Below are positions 4,654 through 60,410 of a DNA stretch of 64,000 nucleotides, piece by piece (the first letter of the stretch is position 1; the number at the start of each line of letters is the position of its first letter). The stretch spans positions 128,001-192,000 of IMG/VR virus record IMGVR_UViG_3300042090_001530; one strand, 5' to 3'. The notes beneath the pieces are model-generated. The model had not been told where the DNA came from. It saw only the letters and a list, made by a program, of their open reading frames with translations, and searched no databases. This DNA comes from a virus (Duplodnaviria > Caudoviricetes). Made by a program: the position numbers and the translations under genes.

Positions 4654-4860
4654 GTGGCAAACGGCACGGTGAAGTGGTTCAACGCGGAGAAGGGCTACGG
4701 TTTCATCGCCCAGGAGGGTGGTGGCCCGGATGTCTTCGTGCACTATTCGGCCCTGTCCGGCGACGGCTACCGGGAGCTCGTCGAGAAGCAGCGCGTCCAG
4801 TTCGAGGTCACCCAGGGAACCAAGGGCCCGCAGGCTGCGAACGTCGTCGTCATCGGCTGA
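4654..4860 (+). CDS. cspA: Cold-shock protein
   Basis: [18 protein letters not shown] (RNP1), DVFVHYSAL (RNP2), KGPQAANV; GTG start at 4654. Confidence 0.95.
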
Positions 4861-19400: not shown

Positions 19401-20198
19401 GTCTTCTCCCAGTTCGCGGCACCGTCATGGTCGCCATCGTCCGTCCGCCGCCACAGCCGACCGCTGGCGTCTCGAACCGTGACCCAGTGCCCGGGCTCGG
19501 GGTCGCCCGCGGTGAGTACGTCGCCGACGTTCGGCGGCACCCGGTCCTCCCAAGGAAACGGGGTCGAGTCGTTGACCCGGAACAGCCCGCCGACCATCGC
19601 GTGCGGGCGGATGACCGGTCCGAGGCTCTCAGCCATCGGCCACCGCCGTCGATTCGACGATCTCGTACTTGAGCGACTGGACCAGCCGCCCCTTGAACTG
19701 ACGCACCCGCAGGCCGGTCACGACGCAGCGCGTGAGCTCAGGCGTGCCGGACTCCCAGTCGGTGAAGTCGAACTCGAGCGGCTCATCGAGCAGCGCGTAG
19801 TTCGCGGTGAATTCGTGGAGCAGTCCGCGGAGAGTCGGCGGCTTGTCAGTCATCCTCGCGCTCCGCTTCAGCGGCCGCCGCCGGGCATCCGAGCCACGGC
19901 CAGTGCACGAGGCTCAGGTTGACGTTCGTCGGCCCGGTCTCGGTGCGTTCGGGATGGAAGTACGCGCCACTGTGCATGTCGGCCTTCTCGAGTCCGTACC
20001 AGTGCCCGTTGAGCGTGATGAACGAGCCGCCTGTGAGGCCGTGGAGGTCGATGTCGTGGTGAGCGCCGAGGTGTTCGACGCGGGCGGTGAGGGGTTGACG
20101 CTTCGCTGAGTCCGGCACGCGACCAGTGTGCCGTATTACGTCCTACCATCACACGTCTTACGGCTACCATCGGACGCAGTCTCAGAAAGGGGTCACCA

Positions 20199-20933
20199 GT
20201 GGCCAAGCTGTGCCAGATCGTCGCCGTCGAGAAGTCGGTGAAGTCCAAGTCGTTCGCGGACCTCACCGAAGCGCATCACGCGTTGCAGAAGCCCGCGCTG
20301 CTCGCCGGGATCTCCCGCACCTACCAGCCCAAGGACGAGGAAGGCGACACGTTCCCGCCCGAGTCCACGAAGGTCCAGGTGCGCGCCGAGGACGTGATCG
20401 AACGCACCGCGGCGAACCTCACCCGGCTGTTCGACGTGACCGCAACGAAGGAGTGGGCGAACTGCACGGCCCGGGCGGACGTGAAGCTCCCGGACGGCAC
20501 GGTGCTCGTGCACCAGGCGCCGGTCACGTACCTGCTGTTCCTGGAGAAGCAACTGGTCGACCTGGCGACGTTCGTGAAGAAGCTGCCGGTGCTCGACGCG
20601 GCCGAGTCGTGGGAGCACGACCCTGCGTCCAACGCGTGGCGCACCCCCGCGGTGCAGACGAACCGGTCGAAGAAGGTCTACCGCAACCACATCAAGGCCG
20701 AAGCCACCGATAAGCACCCGGCTCAGGTCGAGACGTACACCGAAGACGTGACCGCCGGGCACTGGACGACCACGAAGTTCTCCGGCGCCCTGCCGGCGAC
20801 GCGGGTTAAGGAGCTCGCCGAGCGGGTGGAGACGCTGCACCACGCCGTGAAGTTCGCGCGCGAGGAGGCCAACGGGGCCGAGGTGACGGATCGTCTGGTC
20901 GGCGAGGCCGTGTTCGGTTACCTGTTCGCGTGA
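20199..20933 (+). CDS. Conserved uncharacterised protein (244 aa; recalled as DUF7873-like, unverified) upstream of a tRNA-like ncRNA
   Basis: GTG start with AAAGGGG RBS; high-GC3 coding pattern; MAKLCQIVAVEK...SRTYQPKDEEG...YLLFLEKQL...KFAREEAN. Confidence 0.8.
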   Translation: MAKLCQIVAVEKSVKSKSFADLTEAHHALQKPALLAGISRTYQPKDEEGDTFPPESTKVQVRAEDVIERTAANLTRLFDVTATKEWANCTARADVKLPDGTVLVHQAPVTYLLFLEKQLVDLATFVKKLPVLDAAESWEHDPASNAWRTPAVQTNRSKKVYRNHIKAEATDKHPAQVETYTEDVTAGHWTTTKFSGALPATRVKELAERVETLHHAVKFAREEANGAEVTDRLVGEAVFGYLFA

Positions 20934-20939
20934 TGGTCT

Positions 20940-21330
20940 AGGATCTGCTGCGAGCGCAGGTTGAGGCTAAGGCTGAAACTGACGGATCGCTCGACGAGGT
21001 TGCAGGTTCGAGTCCTGCTCTGCGCACTCCGGGCGCAGATGGCCCAATTGGTAGAGGCGCGTCGGGTTCCACCCAGGTTGAGGCTCTCGCTCCAGGCTCG
21101 CGTATCGCAGTCGATCGCCCGATCGAATGGATTGCCGCTGAGACCGCCAGGTTGTTGGTTCGATCCCAACGCGAGGCTCTTCGTGCCTCGCTAGCTCAAT
21201 CGGCAGAGCAGGCGCTTCAAGGTGACGGTGTTCCTTAAACGTCGCGGGTGTGACAAATGGCTGTCAACTGACTCGATATCAGTGATTGGGACCCTCGGGA
21301 TGGATATGGCCCGGGGGTTCCGCCATGTCC
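20940..21330 (+). ncRNA. Structured ncRNA with two tandem circularly permuted tRNA-like modules (20992-21064, 21145-21214); ends approximate
   Basis: Each module runs anticodon-stem 3' strand, AGGTT, 5-bp T stem with TTCGA loop, perfect 7-bp acceptor stem closed by a 7-nt loop, D arm, anticodon-stem 5' strand. The stems pair with different sequences in the two copies. Confidence 0.8.
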
Positions 21331-21389
21331 GGGCAACCGTCGCCGGACAGGCTCGGACACCACCGGACAGCGCCCCGTACGCTGTTCGC

Positions 21390-21683
21390 ATGTGCCGTTA
21401 CGCGATGAGCGACTATCGGACGCACTTCGTGTGCACGTTGTGCCGCCGCTCGTTCAAGCACGAGCCCGGTAGTGAGCAGCGCTGCCCTGGCTGCCGCGGG
21501 CCGATGGTGGATGCGGGCCGGGACCTTGAGGTGCCGCGGCGTGGTGACGTGGCCGGGTGGCGTGCGCTGGCCGCAGTGCTCGACGCGGGGCTGACGTTCC
21601 ATTCGTGCGGCTGCAACGGGCCCGGCTACCGGCCGAGAACGCCGGCCGCAGCCCGGCAGGTGGCATTCGCCAGCCGTAGATAG
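21390..21683 (+). CDS. Zn-finger protein (CxxC...CxxC...HSCGC)
   Basis: MCRYAMSDYRTHFVCTLCRRSFK...CPGC...PRRGD...GPGYRPRT. Confidence 0.7.
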   Translation: MCRYAMSDYRTHFVCTLCRRSFKHEPGSEQRCPGCRGPMVDAGRDLEVPRRGDVAGWRALAAVLDAGLTFHSCGCNGPGYRPRTPAAARQVAFASRR

Positions 21684-21684
21684 C

Positions 21685-21722
21685 GCGACCGCCCCGGTTT
21701 CGGCCGGGGCGGTCGCTTCTCT
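21685..21722 (+). terminator. Intrinsic terminator
   Basis: Perfect 13-bp stem GCGACCGCCCCGG/CCGGGGCGGTCGC, 6-nt loop, followed by TTCTCT, immediately after the stop codon. Confidence 0.8.
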
Positions 21723-22279: not shown

Positions 22280-23425
22280 TCAGGCCTTGACGATCGCCCC
22301 CCAGTGCCCGCGGCTGAGCCGGATCGTGCCGTCGAGCCCGACGGTCGCGTTCGCACCGTACAGCGGCAGGCGCCCTTCGATCAGCCACCTCTTCTTGAGC
22401 CCGTCGAGGCTGCGCCACAGGTCGATCGGGCCACTCACGTGGACCGTAGGGAGTTGCCCGATGGAGCCTTCGGCGCGGGCCCATGAACCTTCCCGATCCC
22501 AGATCAGGCTGATCGCGTAGGTGCCGCGTCGCACCCACCGCGTTTGGATGCCCTGATGCTGGACGGCGAGGTTGGAGTACAACTCCCACGCGTCGTCGAG
22601 GTCGGTCAGCGGGAACACGCCCGCGCGCGCCGACTGGTCGCCGCTGGACTCGAGCATCAGGTCGAGTCGCCGCTTCGAGACTTCCGGCGGATAGGTGTCG
22701 GAGTGGCGTGCGGGCATGAACCCGGCCCAGTCGCGTTCGATACGCCCGAGCAGCGTCCCGTCGGGTTGTCGGTTGGCGGTGAGGATCGCCGTCGTGCCGT
22801 CGAGCACCGTGACGATCCGGCCGCCGGGCCGTAGGGCTTCGATCCACGCGGGCGGGATCGGGCTGACGGCGACGGTCGCGACGATCCGGTCGTACGTGCC
22901 GGGCACGATCCGGGTCGCGTCGCACACCTCGAGGGTGGGCGTCAGGCCGTTTGCCTCGAGGCGTTCACGCGCGGCCTTCACCAGGTACGGGTCTACGTCG
23001 ACCGAGGTGACATGCCTGTCGCCGAGGCGCGTGCACAGCAGGGCGGTGCCGTATCCGGAGCCGGTGCCGACGTCGAGGACGTCCATGCCGTCGACGAGTT
23101 GGCCGTGCCGGTACATCTGGATCAGCAGTCCGGGATGCGTGCTCGACGACGTGGGCCTACCGTCGTCCAGGGTCGTGCCGGGGGCCGCCGCGTCCGCGTG
23201 CATCGTGCCGACGCGGGTGACGAGCGAGACGTCCCGGTATGCGGCATCGACCCATCGGTCTGGGTTCTGCTTGCCGCCGTGGTTGACCCATCCGTCGCCG
23301 CGACGCGCCCACCAGGAGGGCACGTATTCGTGCCGGGGGACCGATGCTAGGGGTTGGCGCCAGCGGGAGACGCCGGGCGTGACGGCGGCGGCCATGTCGG
23401 CGGCGCGCGTTTTCCAGTCGGGCAC
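22280..23425 (-). CDS. Protein-L-isoaspartate O-methyltransferase (PIMT)-like, RiPP-associated, with C-terminal extension
   Basis: VPRHEYVP, TSSSTHPGL, VLDVGTGSGYGTALL, YDRIVATVAV, LRPGGRIV; 381 aa. Confidence 0.85.
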   Translation of the reverse strand: MPDWKTRAADMAAAVTPGVSRWRQPLASVPRHEYVPSWWARRGDGWVNHGGKQNPDRWVDAAYRDVSLVTRVGTMHADAAAPGTTLDDGRPTSSSTHPGLLIQMYRHGQLVDGMDVLDVGTGSGYGTALLCTRLGDRHVTSVDVDPYLVKAARERLEANGLTPTLEVCDATRIVPGTYDRIVATVAVSPIPPAWIEALRPGGRIVTVLDGTTAILTANRQPDGTLLGRIERDWAGFMPARHSDTYPPEVSKRRLDLMLESSGDQSARAGVFPLTDLDDAWELYSNLAVQHQGIQTRWVRRGTYAISLIWDREGSWARAEGSIGQLPTVHVSGPIDLWRSLDGLKKRWLIEGRLPLYGANATVGLDGTIRLSRGHWGAIVKA

Positions 23426-23428
23426 GGG

Positions 23429-24334
23429 TCAGTCCTTGGTTCTCTGTGTGAGCCGGATGGTCGGGAACGGCGGCGTGTAGTCGTAGGCCGGGGCGCATGC
23501 GGGGGTGCGGGCCGGGTCGCAGTCGTTCGAGTCGTCCGGTGTGCATGGGTCGCTGCTGCGGCGCGGGATGCTGCGCATGTGCCGGTTCCAGGTCGGGCCG
23601 GCGAGGATCCCGGCGAGTGTCGCACCGTCGAGGAGGTTGCCTGCACGCAGGCCGCGGCCGAGCACGCACGGGGCGACGGTGCCGTCCGGTAGGATCGCGA
23701 GCCGTCCGTCACCGCAGCGCCCGCACAGTTCGGTGACAGGCGCGTCAATGTCCGGGTTCGGGCTGGCCCGGCCGACACCGCGCGCCCGGTCTATCTTCAC
23801 CAGATCTTCGGGGACGCCGAGCCCGATCAACTCCGCTTTGGCTTCGTCGGCGCGTTGGCCCGGAAGCACTCGGACGATGCCGACCTGCAGCGGGATGCCC
23901 AGGTTTAGGGCCGTGACGATGTTCGCGCGCGTCCGGGCGTGGCTGCCGGGCTTCGTCGTGACCGCATCATGCTCGGCCGCGACGTCGGAGTAGTACGACG
24001 TGCCGAGGGTCACGCGCGGATTGGAGAACGCGTCCCAATGCTGCGCGGTGACGCTGTAGAGGTTCGAGTAGACCTGCACTTTGAGGCCTTCGAAGCCGAG
24101 GACGTAGTCGAGCAGTTCGAGCCAGTGCGGTGACGCGGTCGGCTCGCCGCCGATGAGTTGGATGGTTTCGGCGCCGCAGTCGCGGGCTTGGCGCACTGCA
24201 GCCTTCCAGTCTTCGAGGGTCATCGCGCCGTGGTGTGCGCCCGGATGCGAGCGCGTCAGACAGTGGGTGCACTTGAGTTGGCAGGCATGGGTGAGTTCGA
24301 GTTCGACGAGGCGCGGGACTGCGTCGGCGCCCAT
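23429..24334 (-). CDS. Radical SAM protein with twitch/SPASM domain and Cys/Pro/Asp-rich C-terminal tail
   Basis: CQLKCTHC (CxxxCxxC), GGEPT, CGRCGDG...APCVL; tail CTPDDSNDCDPARTPACAPAYD. Confidence 0.9.
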   Translation of the reverse strand: MGADAVPRLVELELTHACQLKCTHCLTRSHPGAHHGAMTLEDWKAAVRQARDCGAETIQLIGGEPTASPHWLELLDYVLGFEGLKVQVYSNLYSVTAQHWDAFSNPRVTLGTSYYSDVAAEHDAVTTKPGSHARTRANIVTALNLGIPLQVGIVRVLPGQRADEAKAELIGLGVPEDLVKIDRARGVGRASPNPDIDAPVTELCGRCGDGRLAILPDGTVAPCVLGRGLRAGNLLDGATLAGILAGPTWNRHMRSIPRRSSDPCTPDDSNDCDPARTPACAPAYDYTPPFPTIRLTQRTKD

Positions 24335-24362
24335 GGCGCTCCTTGTGGTCGGTGGGTGGGGG

Positions 24363-24836
24363 TTAAGCCGAGACGCGTTGCAGTACTACGGTAGGCGGGT
24401 CCTCGGCGTGGGCGCCCGCGCTCATGGTCGCCCCGATCGCGAGTGACGCCCACACCAGCTTGCCGAGCCTGGCGGGTTCCGTGCCCCATTCTGCGGCGAG
24501 CGCGTCCACGATCTGCAGGCCGCGCCCGGTTTCTGCGTCGTCGTCGGCGTCGCGTTCCAGCGGCATGGCATCTTTCGCGTCCTGGACTTCGACGAACAGC
24601 AGTCCGTCGTCGGCTTCGCGGTCGGTGTAGATGGTGAGGAACGCAGGCTCCGCACCATGCATCACGGCGTTGGTGACGAGCTCGGATGTGATCAGGTCTG
24701 CTGCGTCCGCGAGATGCCCGAGACCCCACTTGGCCAGGGCGGCGTCGAGGATGCGGCGGGCCTGGTGCGGCGCAGAGCGGGTGAGGGCGAACTGCGTGGA
24801 GACGCGTTCGTGGGTGCGGGGCAGGCGGGTGTTCAC
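24363..24836 (-). CDS. HATPase_c ATP-binding protein (RsbW/anti-sigma-like)
   Basis: SELVTNAVMHG, VEVQD, ETGRGLQIVDALAAEWG, GKLVWA. Confidence 0.9.
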   Translation of the reverse strand: MNTRLPRTHERVSTQFALTRSAPHQARRILDAALAKWGLGHLADAADLITSELVTNAVMHGAEPAFLTIYTDREADDGLLFVEVQDAKDAMPLERDADDDAETGRGLQIVDALAAEWGTEPARLGKLVWASLAIGATMSAGAHAEDPPTVVLQRVSA

Positions 24837-25176
24837 CGGGGCGCCCCGGCGCGTGGCTGCGGCCGGCTGGCGGCGGACTGGGGCGCCTTGGGCGCCTCGG
24901 TTCGATGGGGCGCCGTCGTCGCTCGCATACCGTGCCGCTCCTCGCTGCCGAAGGAAAAGGTGCGCTGTGCAATGTGCATACGATTGCGCGCCGGTCGCCC
25001 GATGGCTAGATGCGCGGACCCGGGTGTAGTGCATCCGGGTCCGGAGCCCGGCGGCCGCTGCGTGTGGACCACGGGCACTCCCCAGATTGATACGGCTGCA
25101 CTAAGACAGGTGTATCACCGCCGTAGTACGCTGCCAAGACATACCGCACAGGAACCTGAAAGAAGGACGTCAACCC

Positions 25177-25908
25177 GTGACGCCGAAACAGCGCACCGAA
25201 CCCACCCACCGACGCGACGAAATCGCCGAAGCACTCCGCGGACGCATCGGCATCGGCGAATTCGCCCCCGGGGCCGAAGTGCCGTCCGGACGGGAACTCG
25301 CCGCCCAATACGACTGCGCGCCCATGACCGCCAACGCCGCCCTGCACATACTCGCCGAGGACGGCGTCATCACCATCCGGCCCGGCCGAGGGTCGATCGT
25401 CGCCCGGGCCGTCCCGTCGATCGCCGGGCCCGCCGAGAGGATGAACCGCTCGCGTTCCGGCACCCTGTTCCGCGAGGGCGACGTCCAGGAGATCCTGCGC
25501 TGCCACCTGACGCGGGGACATCCGGACGCGCGGGCCGCGTTGCGCGTGTTCGACGACGAGGAACTGGGCGCCCGCGACTACCTGGTGCGCAACGCGGCCG
25601 GCGCGGTCGTGACGCGTGCGACGTCGTATGTGCATCCGGACGTGTGGACGGCGGTCGCCGAGATCCGGGGGCCGGCGCCGATCCGGGACGGCATCATCGG
25701 CGCGATCCGGCGTGTCCTGGGGCGCGAGGCGGTCGACACCCCGACGCGGCGCAAGGCCGCCCATGCGACGGATGAGGAGGCCGCCGTGTTCGGCGTGCCG
25801 GAGGGCTCCCCGGTGCTCGTCGAGGTCACCGAATGCCAGCTGCGGGACGGCACGGTCGTGGAGTGGAACGTGTCGGTGCACCCGGAAGGGTACTGGGTCG
25901 GGCGGTAA
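25177..25908 (+). CDS. GntR-family regulator with UTRA domain
   Basis: IAEALRGRIGIGEFAPGAEVPSGRELAAQY...GRGSIV; C-terminal UTRA-like domain; divergent from the HATPase gene. Confidence 0.9.
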   Translation: MTPKQRTEPTHRRDEIAEALRGRIGIGEFAPGAEVPSGRELAAQYDCAPMTANAALHILAEDGVITIRPGRGSIVARAVPSIAGPAERMNRSRSGTLFREGDVQEILRCHLTRGHPDARAALRVFDDEELGARDYLVRNAAGAVVTRATSYVHPDVWTAVAEIRGPAPIRDGIIGAIRRVLGREAVDTPTRRKAAHATDEEAAVFGVPEGSPVLVEVTECQLRDGTVVEWNVSVHPEGYWVGR

Positions 25909-30306: not shown

Positions 30307-30759
30307 TCATCCCGCAAGGACTGGATCCCAGCCGGGTACGACGGTCAGCGGGATGCCTTCGCGCACCCACAGGGCGCAGGGCTCGGGCCGGTCGTCGTAC
30401 GCGTGCACGGGCCTGTATCGGAGCCGGATCTTCGCAAGGATCTCAGCCTTGATGACCTCGTCGGGCCGGCAGTCGTTATTCGGCCGCATGTACATGGCGT
30501 CGCTCGGAACCGAGTGCAATGCCAAGGTCCACGCGCTCACGTGCCGGTAGCGGATCTGCCGGGCGGTCGTGATCAGGATGGCGCGGCCGAGCTTGGCGTG
30601 CTCGCGCAACTCGTCCACGACCCACTGGTTGACGGGGCAGTTGACGCTGGCCATGTGGAAGGCGTGGAAACGGCCGGGACCGTTGATCAGATGCCGGATG
30701 CCGCGAACGTCGACGATCGTGCCATCAAGATCCGCGATGACGGCCTCGGGCAGGATCAC
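30307..30759 (-). CDS. HAD-family phosphatase resembling the polynucleotide kinase-phosphatase 3'-phosphatase domain
   Basis: DLDGT, ITTAR, LYMR-like MYMRPNND, K, YDDR. Confidence 0.8.
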   Translation of the reverse strand: MILPEAVIADLDGTIVDVRGIRHLINGPGRFHAFHMASVNCPVNQWVVDELREHAKLGRAILITTARQIRYRHVSAWTLALHSVPSDAMYMRPNNDCRPDEVIKAEILAKIRLRYRPVHAYDDRPEPCALWVREGIPLTVVPGWDPVLAG

Positions 30760-31505
30760 GGCACCTCCTTCGGCGTGACGCGGTAGTACTCGGCGCGCAC
30801 CCGGTTGAGCCAGGACTGCACGATCGCGGTGCGCGGCTCGTCAGGGAGCACGGTCTTGGCGGCGTTGAACCGATCTTCGGCGGCGGCCATGAACGGCACG
30901 GCGGCCTGCGGGTTGGCGGCGACAGCCTCGCCGAAGTCGAGGTACTTCTGCGGGTTCTCGAGCCGGATGCGCAGGTTGCCGGTGGTGTACAGCTCGAATC
31001 CTTGATCAACCAGGCGCATCAAGTGCCTGGCGTGCTTGGAGGCTCGCCGTGCCGGGATGTCTGAGTCGAACGACCCGTCACCGCGCGTCAGCAGCTTCTT
31101 GAACTGCTGCGTCGCATAGCCGAGGTACGCGTCCCTCGTCCGCTTGGCGCAGTGGAACGCACTCCGGAGCCCGATCAGTTCCGCACCGAGCGGCGCCCTG
31201 ACCTCATACTCAGTCAACCAGAGCACCTCTGTCGACGTTGGATTACCGGCCAGTAGTAGCCGTACGGCTTTCGAGGCCTCGTGCAGCGTCGAGTCGGGTT
31301 TCGTCGTCACGATCGAGTCGCGCGGCGGGTCGAGCCTGAACAGCCGCACCGTGTCGTACGCGAAGATCCCGAGACGGTCCACGTCCGAGTCCGGGCCGGC
31401 AAGCCCGTAAGCCGTCGATCCGACCACGCCCTCAAGGAGAATGTGCATGCCGCCAGTCTCTGATGTCGGCGCGGCCGGGGCGACCTGATTCGCAACGGCC
31501 GTCAC
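30756..31505 (-). CDS. Pol-beta superfamily nucleotidyltransferase (YcgL/RlaP-like)
   Basis: GSTAYGLAGPDSDVDRLG, GNPTSTEVLW, AYLGYATQQ, KHARHLMRL; GTGA-coupled to neighbours. Confidence 0.85.
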   Translation of the reverse strand: MTAVANQVAPAAPTSETGGMHILLEGVVGSTAYGLAGPDSDVDRLGIFAYDTVRLFRLDPPRDSIVTTKPDSTLHEASKAVRLLLAGNPTSTEVLWLTEYEVRAPLGAELIGLRSAFHCAKRTRDAYLGYATQQFKKLLTRGDGSFDSDIPARRASKHARHLMRLVDQGFELYTTGNLRIRLENPQKYLDFGEAVAANPQAAVPFMAAAEDRFNAAKTVLPDEPRTAIVQSWLNRVRAEYYRVTPKEVP

Positions 31506-49604: not shown

Positions 49605-49912
49605 CACCGTCCCGGCCCGTCCGGTTCCGCCGGGTTGAGCGCGATCAGTGCGAGGCCGTCCAGGTCGACGGGAGCGCGTCGACTCTCGCCGGCCGTCTGG
49701 ATCGCGAAGCGCTGTTCGGTGTCGGCGGCGTGGACGAGTACGGCACTGCCGTCGCCGACCGACGCGGCGATCACTGCCCACAGTTCGTCGCGGACCTTCG
49801 CGGACAGCGTCCCCACGTACAGGCCGGGCGTAGGTTCGAGCATCCAACGGCTCAGGGCGCCGCGGACGTGCGGCGCGACTGCGGTCGCGCTGATGACGGT
49901 CAGGTTGCTCAC
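49604..49912 (-). CDS. cas2: Type I-E Cas2
   Basis: LTVISATAVAPHVRGALSRWMLEPTPGLYVGTLSAKVRDELW; GTGA overlap with the cas1 stop. Confidence 0.93.
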   Translation of the reverse strand: MSNLTVISATAVAPHVRGALSRWMLEPTPGLYVGTLSAKVRDELWAVIAASVGDGSAVLVHAADTEQRFAIQTAGESRRAPVDLDGLALIALNPAEPDGPGR

Positions 49913-50910
49913 GGCCCGTCCTGCCCTCGGCCGTGGTTGGTGCCGCTCGGTACCGAACCGGCTTCCGGGTCCCAGAGTTCGAATGCGTTGGCCAGTTCGA
50001 CATTGCCTGCGGGTTCGATCCCCGGTTCGAACAGGCGCTGGATGTCGCGGACGATGTTCGGCATGAGCCGGAACAGGGTCAGTCCGCGCCGGAACGCGCG
50101 CCTGGCGTCGCCTTCGGGGTCTTCGGATGCGTGCAGGGTGAACGCGAGCGGGATGGTGAGTTCGGCCTTGTACAGGTCGGCGATGTCGTACACGAACGCG
50201 TGGCTGGTGCCGGCGTGTACGAATCCGAGGCCGGGGGAGCAGCCGAGCGCGGTGATCGCGGCGTGGACGATGCCGTACAGGCACTGGTTGGCTGCGGTCA
50301 GGGCGGCGTTGACGGGGTCTTGGCTTTCCCAGTCTTCGGGGTTGTAGGAGCGGCGGAACGCGTGCAGGCCGTGCTGTTTGGCGAGGCGCCTGTAGAGGGA
50401 TTTCATCTGCCAGCCTTCCAGCCCGCGGAGCGTGCCCAGTTTGACGCCGTCGGGCAGTTGCCCTTCCGCAGTGGGGAACCGGTGGGCGTACATGCGTTTG
50501 GCGACCGTGAGCCGCTTGGCGGGGTCGGCCCAGGCGGCTGCCTGCTTTTCGAGCCAGCGGCTCGACCGGCTGGACGGGGTGATCGCGGCGTAACAGCGGA
50601 CGGTGCCCCAGCCGGTGAACACGATGGTGGTGCCGTGTCTGGCGAGGGTGGCGACTGCGGGGTTGGTGATGGAGGTTCCGGGGCCGAGGAGCAGGCAGCT
50701 GATGGCGGCGGTGGGGATGCGGAGGCGGCGTGTCGGGGCGCCGACGGCGGGGAATGCGAGGACGCCTGTGTCGTCTTGGGTGATGCGCATGAGGTCGAGG
50801 AACAGGAACGAGAGGCTGTCGCCGACGCGTGGGAGCATGGCTGCGGTGGGTGCGGCGATGCGGCGTCGGGCTTGCTGGGTGTTGGGTTGGGGTTGGTTCT
50901 CTGGGTGCAT
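49909..50910 (-). CDS. cas1: Type I-E Cas1, catalytic residues intact
   Basis: LPRVGDSLSFLFLD, LLLGPGTSIT, LRGLEG (E), LGFVH (H), FVYDIADLYK (D); likely ATG 50910. Confidence 0.95.
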   Translation of the reverse strand: MHPENQPQPNTQQARRRIAAPTAAMLPRVGDSLSFLFLDLMRITQDDTGVLAFPAVGAPTRRLRIPTAAISCLLLGPGTSITNPAVATLARHGTTIVFTGWGTVRCYAAITPSSRSSRWLEKQAAAWADPAKRLTVAKRMYAHRFPTAEGQLPDGVKLGTLRGLEGWQMKSLYRRLAKQHGLHAFRRSYNPEDWESQDPVNAALTAANQCLYGIVHAAITALGCSPGLGFVHAGTSHAFVYDIADLYKAELTIPLAFTLHASEDPEGDARRAFRRGLTLFRLMPNIVRDIQRLFEPGIEPAGNVELANAFELWDPEAGSVPSGTNHGRGQDGP

Positions 50911-51003
50911 CCGTTGTTGATAGCGCGGTTTCGCAGAGGGCTGAATGCTTGTCGCACGAACGAGTGACGTGTCGATGTTCGGCCGGTCCGGATGAGGATC
51001 TCC

Positions 51004-51460
51004 CGATCTTCCCGTGCGCTCGCGGGCCAGACCCTGGATGAAGAGGCGTCCGCGCGACCCCGACAGATCTTCCCGTGCGCTCGCGGGCCAGACCCGACGG
51101 CTCGTCATCGTCCGGCAGTGCCCTTAGATCTTCCCGTGCGCTCGCGGGCCAGACCGGAACTCGCGGCGGCCGGAGTGGTGGACGGCAGATCTTCCCGTGC
51201 GCTCGCGGGCCAGACGCGTCATCCGGCAGATAAACTCGGCCCCGTTGAGATCTTCCCGTGCGCTCGCGGGCCAGACCTGATCGGGGTGCGATCAGTCCTG
51301 CGCATTGCTAGATCTTCCCGTGCGCTCGCGGGCCAGACTGCCGCCGTCGCCGCGGAGACCGCTGCGGAGAAGATCTTCCCGTGCGCTCGCGGGCCAGACT
51401 CTCGGTCACCTGGTCGAGGTAGCCTTCGGCGAGATCTTCCCGTGCGCTCGCGGGCCAGAC
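51004..51460 (-). CRISPR. CRISPR array: 8 repeats, 7 spacers (six of 32 nt, one of 33 nt), type I-E-like 61-nt period
   Basis: Repeat on minus strand GTCTGGCCCGCGAGCGCACGGGAAGATCT; forward-strand starts 51004, 51065, 51126, 51187, 51248, 51310, 51371, 51432. The divergent copy is at 51004 (trailer) and an AT-richer leader-like segment is at 51461-51495. Confidence 0.97.
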
Positions 51461-51484
51461 AGTTCGTGGCCAGCGCAAACACTC

Positions 51485-51660
51485 TTGAGTTTTACTCACG
51501 AGTCAAGGGAAGCCGGGGGATCACTCCCCCGAGATGACCCGCCCCGTCGCCGAGACTGGCCTTCCTGCTTCGACAGCGGGGTCGAGAGCCGCCGGTCACC
51601 CGACGGACTTTGCCCACCTCCACAGGCGTTTAGACTCTCCCCGATATCCGAGGCGAGCGG
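51485..51660 (-). ncRNA. omegaRNA-like scaffold overlapping the 3' end of the dead TnpB
   Basis: GGGGAGAGTCTAAACGCCTGTGGAGG...GAAGCAGGAA...GGGGGAGTGATCCCCC hairpin, ending near TCAA (51485-51488), as in TnpB 3' ends. Confidence 0.6.
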
Positions 51661-53283
51661 TACCGCATGGTGCAGGATATTGCGCGCAGCATTGACCTCG
51701 CGGTCAAGCTTCATACCGCACTTGATGTTCCCGCACCGGAAAACCACCTGCGTAAGCGGGATGCTTGGGTCTCGCCATCCACACTTGCAACAGGTCTGAC
51801 TCGACGGCAGGTCCCCGGCCGCAGCCCGGAACCGCGTACCCCACTGCGCCGCCTTGTACTCCAACTGGCGCCGCAACTCGGCAGGCGCCGTGTCCAGGAT
51901 CGCCCGGTTGAAGCCGGCCTTCACCTTCACGTCGCTGCCGGGCGCCTCGACGGTGCCCTTCGCGGACCCGGTCATCTGCCGGACATTCAGGTCGCGGACA
52001 GCGATCTCCGGATAGTTGATCGCTATGCTCGCGGAGATCTGGTTCAGGGTGCCGCGCCGCGCCTCCGCAGTCCGATGATGCACGCGGCCGAGCCGCCTGA
52101 CCGCCTTGGCACGGTTCGCCGACTGCGCCTGACCGCGCACGAACGGCTTACGCGCCACAGCCTGCGACGCCTTCACCAAAGCCCGCTTGTGCCTCTTGCC
52201 GTACCGAGGATTCTCATACGCAGTCTCGTCCGACAGGGCGACCAGGGTACGAACACCCCACTCGACGCCGACGGCCGGGCGCATCCGCTGCCGTTCCTTG
52301 GAGACCTTCTGCCGGGCCCGGGAGACCTCCTCGCGGTGCCGCATCGCCTCCGGGGACAGTTCGCACAGCACCGACGCGTACCAGCGGGAGCCGCCCCGGG
52401 AGATCGTCACCGACTTGACCACCGCGTGGCCCCGGTCGATCAGCCGCGCGAGGGGCTTGCAGGACTCGAACAGCCGGACCGAACCGATCCGCGGCACGTT
52501 CAGCCGGCGGTGTCCGTCGGGCCGGATCGACGGGTTGTGCACATCGTGGAACAGGGTGAACGAGTCGGTCGAGCGGCCCTTCTTCTTAAACCGGGGCCTG
52601 CCCATCGCCCGGCCGACCCTGGCCCCGGTGCGCGACGCCATCCAGTTCTGCATCGCCGCCTGGGCGCGGTCGAAGCCGTTGGTGAAGCAGTACACGGAGA
52701 CTTCGGGATGCCACGGGGAGCCGCCGTCTGCGGCGTCCTGGTCGCGGATTTCGCGCCACATGGTGGTGCAGTCCATCGCGGACGGGATCGCGTCGCCGCG
52801 CTCGAATCGGGCCTTCTTGAACTGCAGCACCTCGCGGCGCACGGCAGCGAGTCGCTCCTTGATCTCCAGCAGGTCGGGGCGCGTCTTGTCCTTGACTGCG
52901 GCCATCAGGGCTTTGCGCTCGTCGTCGAGCCGTTTGGTGTCGGCGGCCAACTCGGCGGCCTCGGCTTTGAGGATCGGCCGGGCCTGCTTGTCCCACTGCT
53001 TGATCCGCTCGCCGCGCACCTGGGCCGTCCACGCAGCGGTGGACTTCTCGTCCAGGCCGTCGGGCGGCTGCGGCATCGGCCCGGCGATCCGGGTGATGAC
53101 CTCGTCGCGGCGCGCCTCCCAGGCGAGTTGGGCTTGGGACATCCATGCGATGCCGCGGTTGGTGGCCCACCGGGTGGCGCCAGCATGCCGGGCGAAGTCG
53201 GCGAGTTGGGCTTGGGTTGGGTCGAGGGCGAACCGATAGGCGCGCAGAACTGGCGCGGGCGCTTCGGTTTCAGCGGTGGCCAT
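51496..53283 (-). CDS. tnpB: CRISPR-adjacent TnpB/Cas12-like protein, RuvC-inactivated (595 aa)
   Basis: LRAYRFALDPT HTH, RPRFKKKG, Zn finger CCKC/CGNIKC; RuvC-I GVEWG (D>E341), RuvC-II AVRDL (E>R430), RuvC-III DREVNAA (D>E529). Confidence 0.9.
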   Translation of the reverse strand: MATAETEAPAPVLRAYRFALDPTQAQLADFARHAGATRWATNRGIAWMSQAQLAWEARRDEVITRIAGPMPQPPDGLDEKSTAAWTAQVRGERIKQWDKQARPILKAEAAELAADTKRLDDERKALMAAVKDKTRPDLLEIKERLAAVRREVLQFKKARFERGDAIPSAMDCTTMWREIRDQDAADGGSPWHPEVSVYCFTNGFDRAQAAMQNWMASRTGARVGRAMGRPRFKKKGRSTDSFTLFHDVHNPSIRPDGHRRLNVPRIGSVRLFESCKPLARLIDRGHAVVKSVTISRGGSRWYASVLCELSPEAMRHREEVSRARQKVSKERQRMRPAVGVEWGVRTLVALSDETAYENPRYGKRHKRALVKASQAVARKPFVRGQAQSANRAKAVRRLGRVHHRTAEARRGTLNQISASIAINYPEIAVRDLNVRQMTGSAKGTVEAPGSDVKVKAGFNRAILDTAPAELRRQLEYKAAQWGTRFRAAAGDLPSSQTCCKCGWRDPSIPLTQVVFRCGNIKCGMKLDREVNAARNILHHAVPLASDIGESLNACGGGQSPSGDRRLSTPLSKQEGQSRRRGGSSRGSDPPASLDS

Positions 53284-53340
53284 GTTCTACTCCTTCCCGG
53301 TTCGGCCCTGCAGGTGCGTCAGATTTTAGCGGGTACGTCC
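53284..53340 (-). promoter_or_regulatory. Putative promoter and RBS of the tnpB-array-cas operon
   Basis: -10-like TAAAAT (~53322-53327) and AGGAG RBS 6 nt before the ATG; -35 not clear. Confidence 0.45.
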
Positions 53341-60379: not shown

Positions 60380-60410
60380 GTCCACTCCTCAACCAGCCTT
60401 TCAGCGTCTA

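What the first reader, a model, noticed from the sequence alone, without database searches (positions are those of the whole stretch)
20199..21722. Self-contained plus-strand operon: unknown 244-aa protein, tRNA-mimic RNA, Zn-finger protein, terminator
Seen: the unit is oriented against the surrounding minus-strand run, has its own RBS and ends in a perfect 13-bp terminator, so it looks like a three-part module. Inference: a ribonucleoprotein system, with the helical/beta 244-aa protein as RNA partner and the Cys-rich protein as accessory, possibly for anti-defence or translation control.
Basis: inference. Interest (0 to 1): 0.75.

Follow-up and report, generated by a model that had tools for sequence, protein, structure and literature searches.

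The report
Two-headed tRNA-mimic RNA beside DUF7873
An actinobacterial phage gene of unknown function (DUF7873) is followed by a ~380-base folded RNA carrying two back-to-front tRNA look-alikes; this gene-RNA pair recurs in hundreds of phages, often inside their tRNA gene clusters, and in half of Streptomyces species, so it is probably an undescribed RNA-protein unit, while the zinc-finger gene next to it is only a local neighbour.

Summary
Only two of its three parts form a conserved module.

- **Protein:** the 244-aa protein is DUF7873 (Pfam E 2e-108).
- **RNA:** it is one structured RNA (about 20950-21333) with two circularly permuted, YrlA-type tRNA-like domains. Covariation support is strong (96% and 87% of cells paired; 0/500 shuffles reach this).
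- **Linkage:** the RNA follows DUF7873 in 80/80 bacterial loci, 78/80 viral loci, 81/81 DUF7873-positive Streptomyces genomes, and 4/4 cultured phages at about 30% identity.
- **Zn-ribbon gene:** it is real (true start 21390) but is never near DUF7873 elsewhere.
- **Phage context:** in 44/80 viral loci the module sits among tRNA genes, and all 463 lie on its strand.
- **Ro60:** it is absent from this phage and from 45/49 viral records searched.
- **Processing clue:** about half of the phage modules encode discriminator+CCA after a 7-bp acceptor stem. This suggests RNase P/CCA processing, as shown for M. smegmatis YrlA.
- **Protein assembly:** DUF7873 is modelled as an intertwined homodimer.

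My best reading is a Ro60-independent, Y-RNP-like particle acting on tRNA metabolism. Binding and function are untested. No Rfam family or paper I could read covers it. This scan has already found the same pair in at least 42 other genomes.

The parts
20185..20192 (+). Shine-Dalgarno-like GAAAGGGG, 6 nt before the GTG start
   Evidence: Read from the sequence.
20199..20933 (+). DUF7873 (PF25283) gene, 244 aa; predicted new alpha/beta fold and intertwined homodimer
   Evidence: Pfam E 2e-108 over residues 1-243. GC3 0.93. AF2 pLDDT 96. Dimer model score 0.74 against best control 0.00.
20950..21333 (+). Whole structured ncRNA (ends approximate): 5' domain, linker, 3' domain, terminal hairpin
   Evidence: nhmmer profile and covariance model hits directly after DUF7873 in about 160 loci. 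RNAalifold: 46 of 49 pairs have compensatory changes.
20952..20956 (+). P1 5' strand (GAGCG), pairs with 21088-21092 (CGCTC) and encloses hexamer tract 1 and module 1
   Evidence: 75% of cells paired; all 5 pairs show changes on both sides. Moderate support.
20960..20985 (+). Hexamer tract 1: CTNA motifs repeated every 6 nt
   Evidence: Across 149 distinct RNAs, 104 of 145 spacings between CTNA motifs are exactly 6 nt. There are 2.35 motifs per leader against 0.52 in shuffles.
20990..21066 (+). tRNA-like module 1, permuted order. Closing stem 20990-96/21060-66; variable loop; T-arm 21002-21018; acceptor 3' strand 21019-25; capping loop 21026-32; acceptor 5' strand 21033-39; U8-like T 21040; D-arm 21042-21058
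   Evidence: T-arm 98%, acceptor 98% and D-arm 100% of cells paired, with covariation; 0/500 shuffles reach this. YrlA 25 bits. R1 39.4 bits.
21074..21099 (+). Linker with a second CTSA/hexamer tract and the P1 3' strand (21088-21092)
   Evidence: Conserved block in A1, A3 and A5.
21116..21250 (+). 3' domain. P2 21116-21/21245-50; conserved internal loop ATCGAAT (21122-28) opposite TTAAACG (21235-41); P3 21129-37/21226-34; tRNA-like module 2 at 21145-21214 (T-arm 21154-70, acceptor 21171-77/21185-91, D-arm 21194-21209)
   Evidence: Model R1 115.2 bits, E 2.9e-27. 96% of cells paired against 68.5% in shuffles; covariation 0.771 against 0.234; 0/500. Rfam YrlA aligns end to end at 28 bits.
21288..21321 (+). 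Terminal 12-bp hairpin of the RNA. It has no T-run here; in Streptomyces chromosomes the equivalent hairpin is followed by Ts
   Evidence: Alignment A1 and the sequence.
21390..21683 (+). Zn-ribbon protein gene (97 aa, CxxC...CxxC). A local neighbour, NOT part of the conserved module
   Evidence: 77 homologues cover only the last 97 residues. None lies near DUF7873 in 160 loci. GC3 0.83.
21685..21716 (+). Intrinsic-terminator-like hairpin closing the + strand unit
   Evidence: 14 pairs, 12 G-C, loop 4, T-rich tail. Also matched as a generic hairpin by Rfam sX6.

Best explanation
The conserved unit has two parts: the DUF7873 gene and, starting some tens of nucleotides after its stop codon, a structured RNA of about 330-390 nt.

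Shown here:
- The RNA folds into two domains. Each holds a circularly permuted tRNA body in the order closing stem, variable loop, T-arm, 7-bp acceptor stem capped by a loop, U8, D-arm.
- Each domain is preceded by CUNA motifs repeated every 6 nt.
- The 3' domain also carries two helices around a conserved AUCGA / UUAAACG internal loop.

Inferred:
- The RNA is transcribed with or just after the gene.
- Each acceptor loop is treated like a junction between tRNA genes: RNase P cuts before G+1, and the 3' side is trimmed or extended to CCA, as demonstrated for M. smegmatis YrlA. This would leave a nicked RNA that shows two tRNA-like elbows and acceptor ends but no anticodon.
- The DUF7873 homodimer is its protein partner, possibly one subunit per domain.
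- Together they would form a Ro60-independent particle analogous to Ro60-Y RNA. It would engage enzymes that recognise the tRNA elbow or acceptor end (processing, decay, or defence enzymes). Phages carry it within their tRNA arrays, and about half of Streptomyces species keep a chromosomal copy.
For: Linkage:
- The RNA lies directly after DUF7873 in 80/80 GTDB loci.
- It does so in 78/80 IMG/VR loci, down to 46% protein identity.
- It does so in 81/81 DUF7873-positive genomes of 151 sampled Streptomyces.
- tRNA-like modules lie in the unannotated gap after the gene in 4/4 cultured phages at 30-34% identity.
- No other protein family is conserved around the gene.

RNA structure:
- A4: 96% of cells paired against 68.5% in shuffles and about 43% when slid; 30/31 pairs compensatory.
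- A5: 87.4% against 69.7%.

tRNA-like processing signals:
- Both modules have 7-bp acceptor stems.
- Discriminator+CCA follows the stem in 61/128 viral modules. I estimate chance at about 2% (1 in 64 for a fixed triplet); this was not computed.
- The next base after the 5' strand is T in 248 of 251 modules.
- M. smegmatis YrlA, which also has a 7-bp stem, is cut by RNase P and gains CCA in vivo (PMC4201824).

tRNA context:
- tRNA genes lie within 5 kb in 44/80 viral loci, and all 463 are on the module's strand.
- A tRNA gene ends within 350 nt upstream in 27 loci and starts just after the RNA in 28.

Independence from Ro60:
- TROVE is absent from this 98%-complete phage, from 45/49 viral records, and from 6 of 9 host genomes searched.
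- Where a phage has TROVE, it is adjacent to the module in 2 of 4 cases and has its own YrlA-like modules. This fits two parallel systems.

Dimer:
- The homodimer model scored 0.74; the best of 3 controls scored 0.00.
- That mark was reached by 20 of 30 proteins solved as pairs of one chain and by 1 of 23 solved as single chains. These counts hold only roughly, because my own alignment was used.
- The runs agree in at least 97% of contacts, and partner pLDDT is at least 90.
- A dimer matches a two-domain RNA (inference).

Expression (weak):
- Contigs from four soil RNA libraries cover relatives of both the gene and the RNA. DNA carry-over is not excluded.
Against: - There are no binding, processing or phenotype data.
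- The protein is slightly acidic (median pI 6.3, net charge -2).
- One phage lineage (L124 = L125) has the gene but no RNA within 5 kb.
- Two Streptomyces genomes keep a partial RNA without the gene.
- Tight linkage could also arise from a cis role of the RNA.
- CCA is encoded in only 16/136 chromosomal modules.
- An earlier check in this scan priced the binding claim at 22/100.
Confidence: 0.42

Rival explanations
1. Cis-acting 3' element. The tRNA-like domains serve only the DUF7873 mRNA. They would act as RNase P/RNase Z 'punctuation' and a 3' exonuclease block that releases and stabilises the message, especially when it is embedded in a polycistronic tRNA-array transcript.
For: The RNA always lies 3' of the gene on the same strand. 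The module is flanked by tRNA genes in many phages. The acceptor loops look like tRNA gene junctions.
Against: - A single tRNA-like hairpin would be enough for this job.
- Here about 330 nt are conserved, with two domains, P1-P3, a near-invariant internal loop and periodic hexamer tracts.
- The RNA is kept in Streptomyces chromosomes and in this phage, where there is no tRNA array.
- It is kept next to frameshifted or fragmentary genes (G507, G538) and as orphan remnants.
Confidence: 0.15
2. The RNA works on its own as a tRNA decoy or regulator. It would titrate or mislead elbow- or acceptor-recognising host enzymes or defence toxins. DUF7873 would not be a stable partner but, for example, a maturation factor, an antagonist, or a toxin held in check by the RNA in the manner of a type III toxin-antitoxin pair.
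For: - The tRNA elbow, U8 and 7-bp acceptor are complete, but there is no anticodon loop.
- The module sits in phage tRNA arrays.
- RNA-repair genes occur nearby: RlaP and a PNKP-type phosphatase lie 9.4 kb away in this window, and PNKP lies downstream in 5 viral loci.
- DUF7873 has many conserved acidic residues and is not basic.
Against: - There is no PADLOC, PHROG or NCBIfam match.
- The order gene-then-RNA is the reverse of known type III systems (own knowledge).
- The chromosomal copies are single, highly conserved and not in defence islands as far as seen.
Confidence: 0.2
3. It is an ordinary Ro60-dependent Y RNA locus that uses a Ro60 encoded elsewhere.
For: - Rfam YrlA aligns end to end with the 3' domain, including a CGAAUG-like stretch at the position of the Ro60-binding motif (motif from PMC4201824).
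- TROVE is adjacent to the module in two phages.
Against: - TROVE is not found in this phage, in 45/49 viral records, or in 6 of 9 host genomes searched.
- In L164 the TROVE gene has its own three YrlA-like modules, separate from the DUF7873 RNA.
- YrlA scores reach 25-28 bits against a gathering score of 69. None of 14 diverse members reaches it.
- Most members read AUCGACCGG, not the GNCGAA motif.
Confidence: 0.05
4. A tmRNA-like adaptor. After RNase P cleavage the CCA ends would be aminoacylated, and the hexamer tracts (CUN-ARR, readable as Leu-Lys/Arg) would serve as a short template, as in two-piece permuted tmRNA.
For: - The topology matches the coding piece of permuted tmRNA: tract, T-arm, acceptor 3' strand, CCA (own knowledge).
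- The tracts have a 6-nt period with a variable third position.
- N-CCA is frequent.
Against: - ARAGORN finds no tmRNA in the window.
- The 3:70 pair is C:G or G:C, not G:U.
- No in-frame stop or resume signal is conserved.
- The D-arm is fully canonical, unlike a tmRNA tRNA-like domain.
- No SmpB-like partner is present.
Confidence: 0.04
5. The first reader's three-part ribonucleoprotein, with the Zn-ribbon protein as a dedicated accessory subunit.
For: The Zn-ribbon gene is on the same strand and shares the terminator in this phage. The RNA's terminal hairpin lacks a T-run, so read-through is plausible.
Against: No Zn-ribbon homologue lies within 4-5 kb of DUF7873 in 160 other loci. The Zn-ribbon family occurs on its own in many genomes.
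Confidence: 0.03

Closest known systems
YrlA-type bacterial and phage Y RNAs with Ro60/Rsr (Rfam RF02553; Chen et al. 2014, PMC4201824; Wang et al. 2018, bioRxiv 10.1101/312249)
   Same: - The tRNA-like module has the same permuted order: T-arm, capped acceptor stem, D-arm.
- It is set on a helix with a conserved internal loop.
- The RNA is encoded next to its presumed protein partner.
- It occurs in both bacteria and phages.
- M. smegmatis YrlA, with a 7-bp acceptor stem, is cut by RNase P and gains CCA.
- Several tRNA-like RNAs can come from one precursor.
   Different: - No Ro60/TROVE gene is present in this phage or in most carriers.
- The constant neighbour is DUF7873, an unrelated 244-aa fold.
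- One RNA carries two modules plus hexamer tracts and helices P1-P3.
- It scores far below the Rfam gathering score.
- Most members do not keep the GNCGAA Ro60-binding motif.
tmRNA-SmpB, especially two-piece (circularly permuted) tmRNA
   Same: A tRNA-like domain is built from a T-arm and a CCA-ending acceptor strand placed upstream of the 5' acceptor strand. It probably needs processing into pieces. A dedicated small protein partner is encoded nearby.
   Different: There is no alanine identity pair, no tag reading frame with a stop, and no pseudoknots. The D-arm is canonical. There are two tRNA-like domains. ARAGORN finds no tmRNA.
Phage tRNA gene arrays
   Same: The module lies on the same strand and in the same transcription units as the arrays. 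T- and D-arm sequences are almost those of real tRNAs. Junctions between tandem identical tRNA genes score against the RNA model (48 bits), which suggests how such modules arose.
   Different: There is no anticodon arm, the order is permuted, and the modules are fused into one larger RNA with a protein gene.
TnpB/IscB with omega RNA (a protein gene followed by its own partner RNA)
   Same: The layout is the same: a structured RNA encoded at or after the 3' end of the protein gene, inherited together with it.
   Different: There is no sequence or fold relation. This is an analogy for the gene-RNA layout only (own knowledge).

Membership tests
DUF7873 (Pfam PF25283) | Full-length match above the curated cut-off (27 bits) | tested here: met
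   362.2 bits, E 2e-108, residues 1-243 of 244. Genome search 359.7 bits.
YrlA (Rfam RF02553) | Covariance-model score at or above the gathering score (69 bits) | tested here: not met
   25 and 28 bits in the window. No match at gathering score in the window or in 14 diverse member loci.
YrlA (Rfam RF02553) | tRNA-like module in the order T-arm, capped acceptor-like stem, D-arm, closed by a helix | tested here: met
   Both modules show this order, with covariation.
YrlA / bacterial Y RNA | Encoded within about 4 kb of a Ro60 (TROVE) gene and bound by Ro60 | tested here: not met
   There is no TROVE in the 202-kb phage. It is absent from 45/49 viral records and from 6 of 9 host genomes searched. 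Binding itself is not testable with these tools.
YrlA / bacterial Y RNA | Conserved GNCGAA(N)G motif on the 5' strand of the Ro60-binding helix | tested here: inconclusive
   The window has GATCGAATGG, which is close. The family consensus is GATCGACCGG. The motif definition comes from PMC4201824.
tRNA (RF00005 / ARAGORN) | Cloverleaf in normal order with an anticodon arm, scoring above threshold | tested here: not met
   ARAGORN finds no genes in the window. Rfam tRNA scores 24.3 bits against 29. ARAGORN does call a spurious tRNA-Phe/Leu over the 5' part of the RNA in 22/80 Streptomyces loci.
tmRNA | Detection by ARAGORN (including permuted forms), G3:U70 pair, tag reading frame | tested here: not met
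   ARAGORN, which reports tmRNA genes, found none in the window. The 3:70 pair is mostly C:G or G:C. No conserved in-frame stop was seen.
Known anti-phage defence or phage protein families (PADLOC, PHROGs, NCBIfam) | Profile match of DUF7873 | tested here: not met
   No family matched at E <= 0.01-0.1.
Any solved protein fold | Clear structural match of the AF2 model | tested here: inconclusive
   Foldseek against PDB gave no hit at E <= 0.001. The VIA-align best was 3kdq_A, Z 8.1, rmsd 7.8 over 147 residues, an uncharacterised C. diphtheriae protein within the range common for helical models. AFDB and BFVD returned only uncharacterised relatives.

The most novel reading that the evidence does not exclude
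DUF7873 and its RNA form a new class of ribonucleoprotein. RNase P and CCA addition would turn the RNA into a three-piece complex showing two free tRNA acceptor ends on one dimeric protein scaffold. These ends would either be charged or serve as sacrificial targets. The particle would then shield real tRNAs, including the phage's own array, from enzymes that attack or modify the acceptor end or elbow, such as nucleotidyltransferase, pyrophosphokinase or acetyltransferase toxins. Alternatively it would recruit processing or decay enzymes to them. Streptomyces would keep a domesticated copy for stress RNA surveillance.
Probability: 0.12. Interest if true: 0.9.

Novelty: new variant of a known kind. 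Interest (0 to 1): 0.72.

Why it matters
Bacterial Y RNAs are understood only as Ro60 partners. Here a larger, two-headed relative is tied just as tightly to a different, structurally orphan protein.

- It is widespread: 2347 clusters at 50% identity, at least 328 viral contigs, 75 cultured phages including Gordonia, Arthrobacter, Klebsiella, Vibrio, Rhizobium and Ralstonia phages, and about half of Streptomyces species.
- If the pair is a particle, it gives DUF7873 a function.
- It would also explain a recurrent 'empty' gap, or a wrongly called tRNA, in phage and Streptomyces annotations.
- It would open a testable link between phage tRNA arrays, tRNA mimicry and RNA surveillance or defence.
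- Actinobacteria lack Hfq, ProQ and CsrA (own knowledge), so a new conserved RNA-protein pair there would be useful in itself.
- It deserves its own RNA family model.

Tried and rejected
- **Fold searches.** I searched the pLDDT-96 model against PDB with Foldseek and VIA-align wide, and against AFDB clusters and BFVD. None gave a characterised relative. A PDB sequence profile search gave nothing below E 0.1. The ESM Atlas feature search gave only unnamed clusters at 0.80, which is chance level.
- **Profile libraries.** PHROGs, NCBIfam and PADLOC gave no match for DUF7873.
- **Neighbourhood clustering.** Clustering ORFs from 81 viral loci found no second conserved protein. The next family, the large terminase, is in only 11 loci.
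- **Metagenome contigs.** Three distant representatives returned contigs too short, or without DNA, to show what follows the gene.
- **Pairing between hexamer tracts.** I considered base-pairing between the 5' and linker tracts and rejected it. Members with only CTCA-type motifs on both sides (e.g. L117) cannot pair.
- **A normal-order tRNA at the 5' end.** The Rfam tRNA hit (24.3 bits) and the ARAGORN tRNA-Phe/Leu calls in 22 Streptomyces loci are not conserved in the phage members.
- **Weak hits of model R1.** The roughly 48-bit hits in nearly every Streptomyces genome are junctions of tandem tRNA genes (tRNA-Asn x2), not further copies.
- **Literature.** 'DUF7873' returns 0 papers. The 37 papers that mention YrlA include none on this pair. 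A 2026 preprint on three tRNA-mimic families concerns other RNAs. Burroughs and Aravind 2016 (PMC5062991) and Sim et al. 2020 (PMC10870794) are not held, so I could not check whether they anticipate a Ro-independent tRNA-like RNA.
- **Sequencing runs.** All runs offered were contigs with small shares of the sampled words. They cannot show RNA ends, strand or level, and stretches without cover mean nothing.
- **Promoter.** No sigma-70-like promoter was found. Actinophage promoters may not fit that consensus.
Full report
**What is in the window**

The window is bases 128001-192000 of a 202,490-bp IMG/VR virus record. CheckV rates it 98% complete and it has 68.6% G+C.

The flagged stretch contains the following:
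- A + strand ORF at 20199-20933 with a GTG start, 244 aa and GC3 of 0.93. GAAAGGGG lies 6 nt upstream.
- A 456-nt gap without a credible ORF.
- A Cys-rich ORF ending at 21683.
- A hairpin of 14 pairs at 21685-21716 with a T-rich tail.

The flanking genes on both sides run on the minus strand. No sigma-70-like promoter was found. Homologues of the Cys-rich protein cover only its last 97 residues, so its start is ATG 21390.

**The protein**

- The ORF is a full-length member of Pfam DUF7873 (E 2e-108).
- The family is large. A search of 1.84 billion representatives found 2347 clusters at E <= 1e-3 and 956 at E <= 1e-30.
- AlphaFold2, run on a 49-sequence alignment, gives a confident model (pLDDT 96). 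It has four long helices and a sheet with one long hairpin.
- Foldseek against PDB, VIA-align against 48,161 chains, AFDB clusters and BFVD found no characterised relative. The best PDB match was 3kdq_A (Z 8.1, rmsd 7.8 A), an uncharacterised protein.
- PHROGs, NCBIfam and PADLOC give nothing.
- The family is slightly acidic (median pI 6.3). It has about ten conserved basic and twelve conserved acidic positions.
- A two-copy complex prediction passed its test. The score was 0.74 and the best of 3 controls scored 0.00. That mark was reached by 20 of 30 proteins solved as pairs of one chain and by 1 of 23 solved as single chains. These counts hold only roughly, because my own alignment was used. 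The runs agree in at least 97% of contacts and partner pLDDT is at least 90. The interface is large, symmetric and strand-swapped, with residues 185-198 lying against 35-45. This supports a homodimer but does not prove one.

**The RNA**

ARAGORN finds no tRNA in the window, and nothing reaches an Rfam gathering score. At relaxed thresholds the Y-RNA-like family YrlA hits twice: 20994-21062 at 25 bits and 21125-21241 at 28 bits, against a gathering score of 69.

Alignment with related loci shows one conserved RNA of about 330-390 nt. RNAalifold predicts 49 pairs, and 46 of them have compensatory changes. I then tested explicit structures on separately aligned halves.

- **3' domain (window 21116-21250).** 96.0% of cells are paired, against 68.5% in shuffles and about 43% when the partner is slid. 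The covariation score is 0.771 against 0.234. None of 500 shuffles reaches the observed values.
- **5' domain (window 20950-21098).** 87.4% of cells are paired against 69.7%, again 0/500. The T-arm (98%), acceptor (98%) and D-arm (100%) are very clean. P1 (75%) and the closing stem (64%) are moderate.

Each domain contains a complete tRNA body in permuted order: closing helix, 5-nt variable loop, T-arm with a GGTTCGAnTCC loop, a 7-bp acceptor stem capped by a loop, a U8-like T, and a D-arm with the GG of the elbow.

Further conserved elements:
- CTNA motifs spaced exactly 6 nt apart before each module. Of 145 spacings, 104 are 6 nt, against about 0.5 expected.
- In the 3' domain, helices P2 and P3 around a near-invariant ATCGA / TTAAACG internal loop.

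**Is the pairing with DUF7873 a rule?**

- A profile of the RNA finds it directly after the gene in 80/80 bacterial loci. These are mostly Streptomyces, with Actinospica, Actinoallomurus, Streptacidiphilus and Catenulisporales.
- It finds it in 77/80 IMG/VR loci, at 46-74% protein identity.
- The covariance model R1 recovers one more viral locus (L169). The only exception is a single sequence present in two records, L124 and L125.
- Among 151 sampled Streptomyces genomes, 81 have DUF7873, and all 81 have a strong R1 hit beside it. This includes two with broken genes. Two of the 70 genomes without the gene keep a partial orphan RNA.
- Only 8 of 401 evenly sampled Actinomycetota genomes carry the gene.
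- I also tested far relatives at 30-34% identity: the cultured phages Klebsiella KpLz-2_45, Vibrio D517, Rhizobium RHph_TM21B and Ralstonia phiRSL1. All four have an unannotated gap of 450-700 nt after the gene, with R1 hits of 20.6-45.4 bits. There the flanking helices are less conserved.
- No other protein family is conserved around the gene. Neighbours in Streptomyces chromosomes are unrelated housekeeping or secondary-metabolism genes.
- The Zn-ribbon protein belongs to a separate small-protein family. It is sometimes mis-named deoxyxylulose-5-phosphate synthase. It never lies within 4-5 kb of DUF7873 in these 160 loci.

The conserved module therefore has two parts, not three.

**Context**

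- tRNA genes lie within 5 kb in 44 of 80 viral loci. Twenty-six loci have at least 5 and 17 have at least 10. All 463 tRNA genes are on the module's strand.
- A tRNA gene ends within 350 nt before the gene in 27 loci (11 of them tRNA-Lys) and starts just after the RNA in 28.
- These contigs are real phages: they carry terminase, lysins and HNH genes.
- The focal phage is an exception. It has one distant tRNA gene, and the chromosomal copies also lack nearby tRNAs.
- TROVE/Ro60 is absent from the focal phage, from 45 of 49 viral records, and from 6 of 9 host genomes searched.
- In two of the four phages that have TROVE, it lies within 2 kb of the module. In L164 it is preceded by three further YrlA-like modules of its own. 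That looks like two parallel systems placed side by side.
- RNA-repair genes occur nearby in some cases. RlaP and a PNKP-type phosphatase are at 30310-31505 in this window, and PNKP lies downstream in five viral loci.

**How it probably works**

*Shown:* the fold, the linkage and the context.

*Inferred, processing:*
- The capping loops of the acceptor stems look like junctions between tRNA genes.
- In 61 of 128 viral modules the stem is followed by a discriminator base plus CCA. In chromosomal modules the figure is 16 of 136.
- Chen et al. showed that M. smegmatis YrlA is cut by RNase P in vitro and in vivo and receives CCA. It was the only one of the three Y RNAs tested for RNase P cleavage that has a 7-bp acceptor stem (PMC4201824).
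- I therefore expect both modules to be nicked, giving a base-paired multi-piece RNA with two tRNA-like acceptor ends and elbows but no anticodon.

*Inferred, the particle:*
- The DUF7873 dimer is the most economical candidate partner for a two-domain RNA.
- The particle would resemble Ro60-Y RNA in logic. It would present tRNA-like surfaces to enzymes of tRNA processing, decay or defence.

I put this at about 0.4. The alternatives are a purely cis role for the mRNA (0.15), an RNA acting alone as decoy or regulator with DUF7873 in another role (0.2), a Ro60-dependent Y RNA (0.05), a tmRNA-like adaptor (0.04), and the original three-part model (0.03).

Evidence for expression is weak. Contigs from four soil RNA libraries cover relatives of both the gene and the RNA, but DNA carry-over is not excluded.

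**Comparison with what is known, and novelty**

The closest known system is YrlA with Ro60. The module topology is shared. The Rfam threshold and Ro60 adjacency were tested and not met, and the Ro60-binding motif comparison was inconclusive, so I do not file this RNA as YrlA.

- No Rfam 15 family covers it.
- No paper in the searchable library mentions DUF7873.
- I could not read Burroughs and Aravind 2016.
- This scan has already reported the same gene-RNA pair in at least 42 other genomes.

My results agree with those reports and add the following:
- The negative result for the Zn-ribbon gene.
- The counts for tRNA-array context and strand.
- The CCA statistics.
- The side-by-side Ro60 case.
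- The dimer prediction.
- The check in four distant cultured phages.

Noticed in passing
window 49912-53286 (- strand): A Cas1-domain protein (404 aa, PF01867 E 6.5e-15) lies directly next to a TnpB/Cas12f-like protein (596 aa; OrfB_IS605 plus the Cas12f1-like TNB domain) inside the phage. It could be a casposon-like or transposon-derived insertion.
   Followed up: no
window 30310-31505 (- strand): An RNA end-healing pair lies 9.4 kb from the module: a PNKP-type HAD phosphatase (E 1.1e-16) next to an RlaP nucleotidyltransferase (E 4.2e-18).
   Followed up: partly
window 22280-25905: A radical SAM/SPASM enzyme (23429-24334) lies next to a PCMT-like methyltransferase (22280-23425), with a divergent GntR/UTRA regulator (25105-25905). 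This looks like a small RiPP-type cassette carried by the phage.
   Followed up: no
L164:7106-9307: In one phage, three tandem YrlA-like modules (30-38 bits) sit immediately upstream of a TROVE/Ro60 gene. This lies about 1 kb downstream of the DUF7873 RNA, on the same strand. In L159 a TROVE gene lies just upstream of the module, separated from it by four tRNA genes.
   Followed up: partly
L174:2985-3136 and about 140 Streptomyces genomes: Junctions of tandem identical tRNA genes (e.g. tRNA-Asn x2) score about 48 bits against the RNA model. They are false positives, but they also show how a permuted tRNA-like module could arise from a tandem tRNA duplication.
   Followed up: yes
L002-L081, about 4759-4853: ARAGORN calls a spurious 86-88-nt 'tRNA-Phe/Leu/Ala' over the 5' part of the RNA in 22 of 80 Streptomyces loci. 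In the window, GCGCAG at 20954-20959 repeats the acceptor 5' strand at 21033-21038 and could pair with 21019-21025 instead. That alternative fold excludes P1 and is not conserved in phages.
   Followed up: partly
L175:4955-5123; L176:4026-4172: Two Streptomyces genomes without any DUF7873 match keep only the 3' domain of the RNA. These are probably decayed loci.
   Followed up: partly
window 21390-21683: The Zn-ribbon protein belongs to a widespread small-protein family found in Streptomyces, Nocardia, Kitasatospora, Nonomuraea, and also Chloroflexota, Myxococcota, Flavobacterium and Paenibacillus. Several records name it 'deoxyxylulose-5-phosphate synthase', which looks like a mis-annotation for a protein of about 110 aa.
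   Followed up: partly
L092-L171, just upstream of DUF7873: The tRNA gene immediately before DUF7873 is tRNA-Lys in 11 of 27 loci that have one. This may only reflect shared ancestry of those phages.
   Followed up: no
window 58013-60388 (- strand): A large SNF2-family helicase (792 aa) lies in the same minus-strand block.
   Followed up: no
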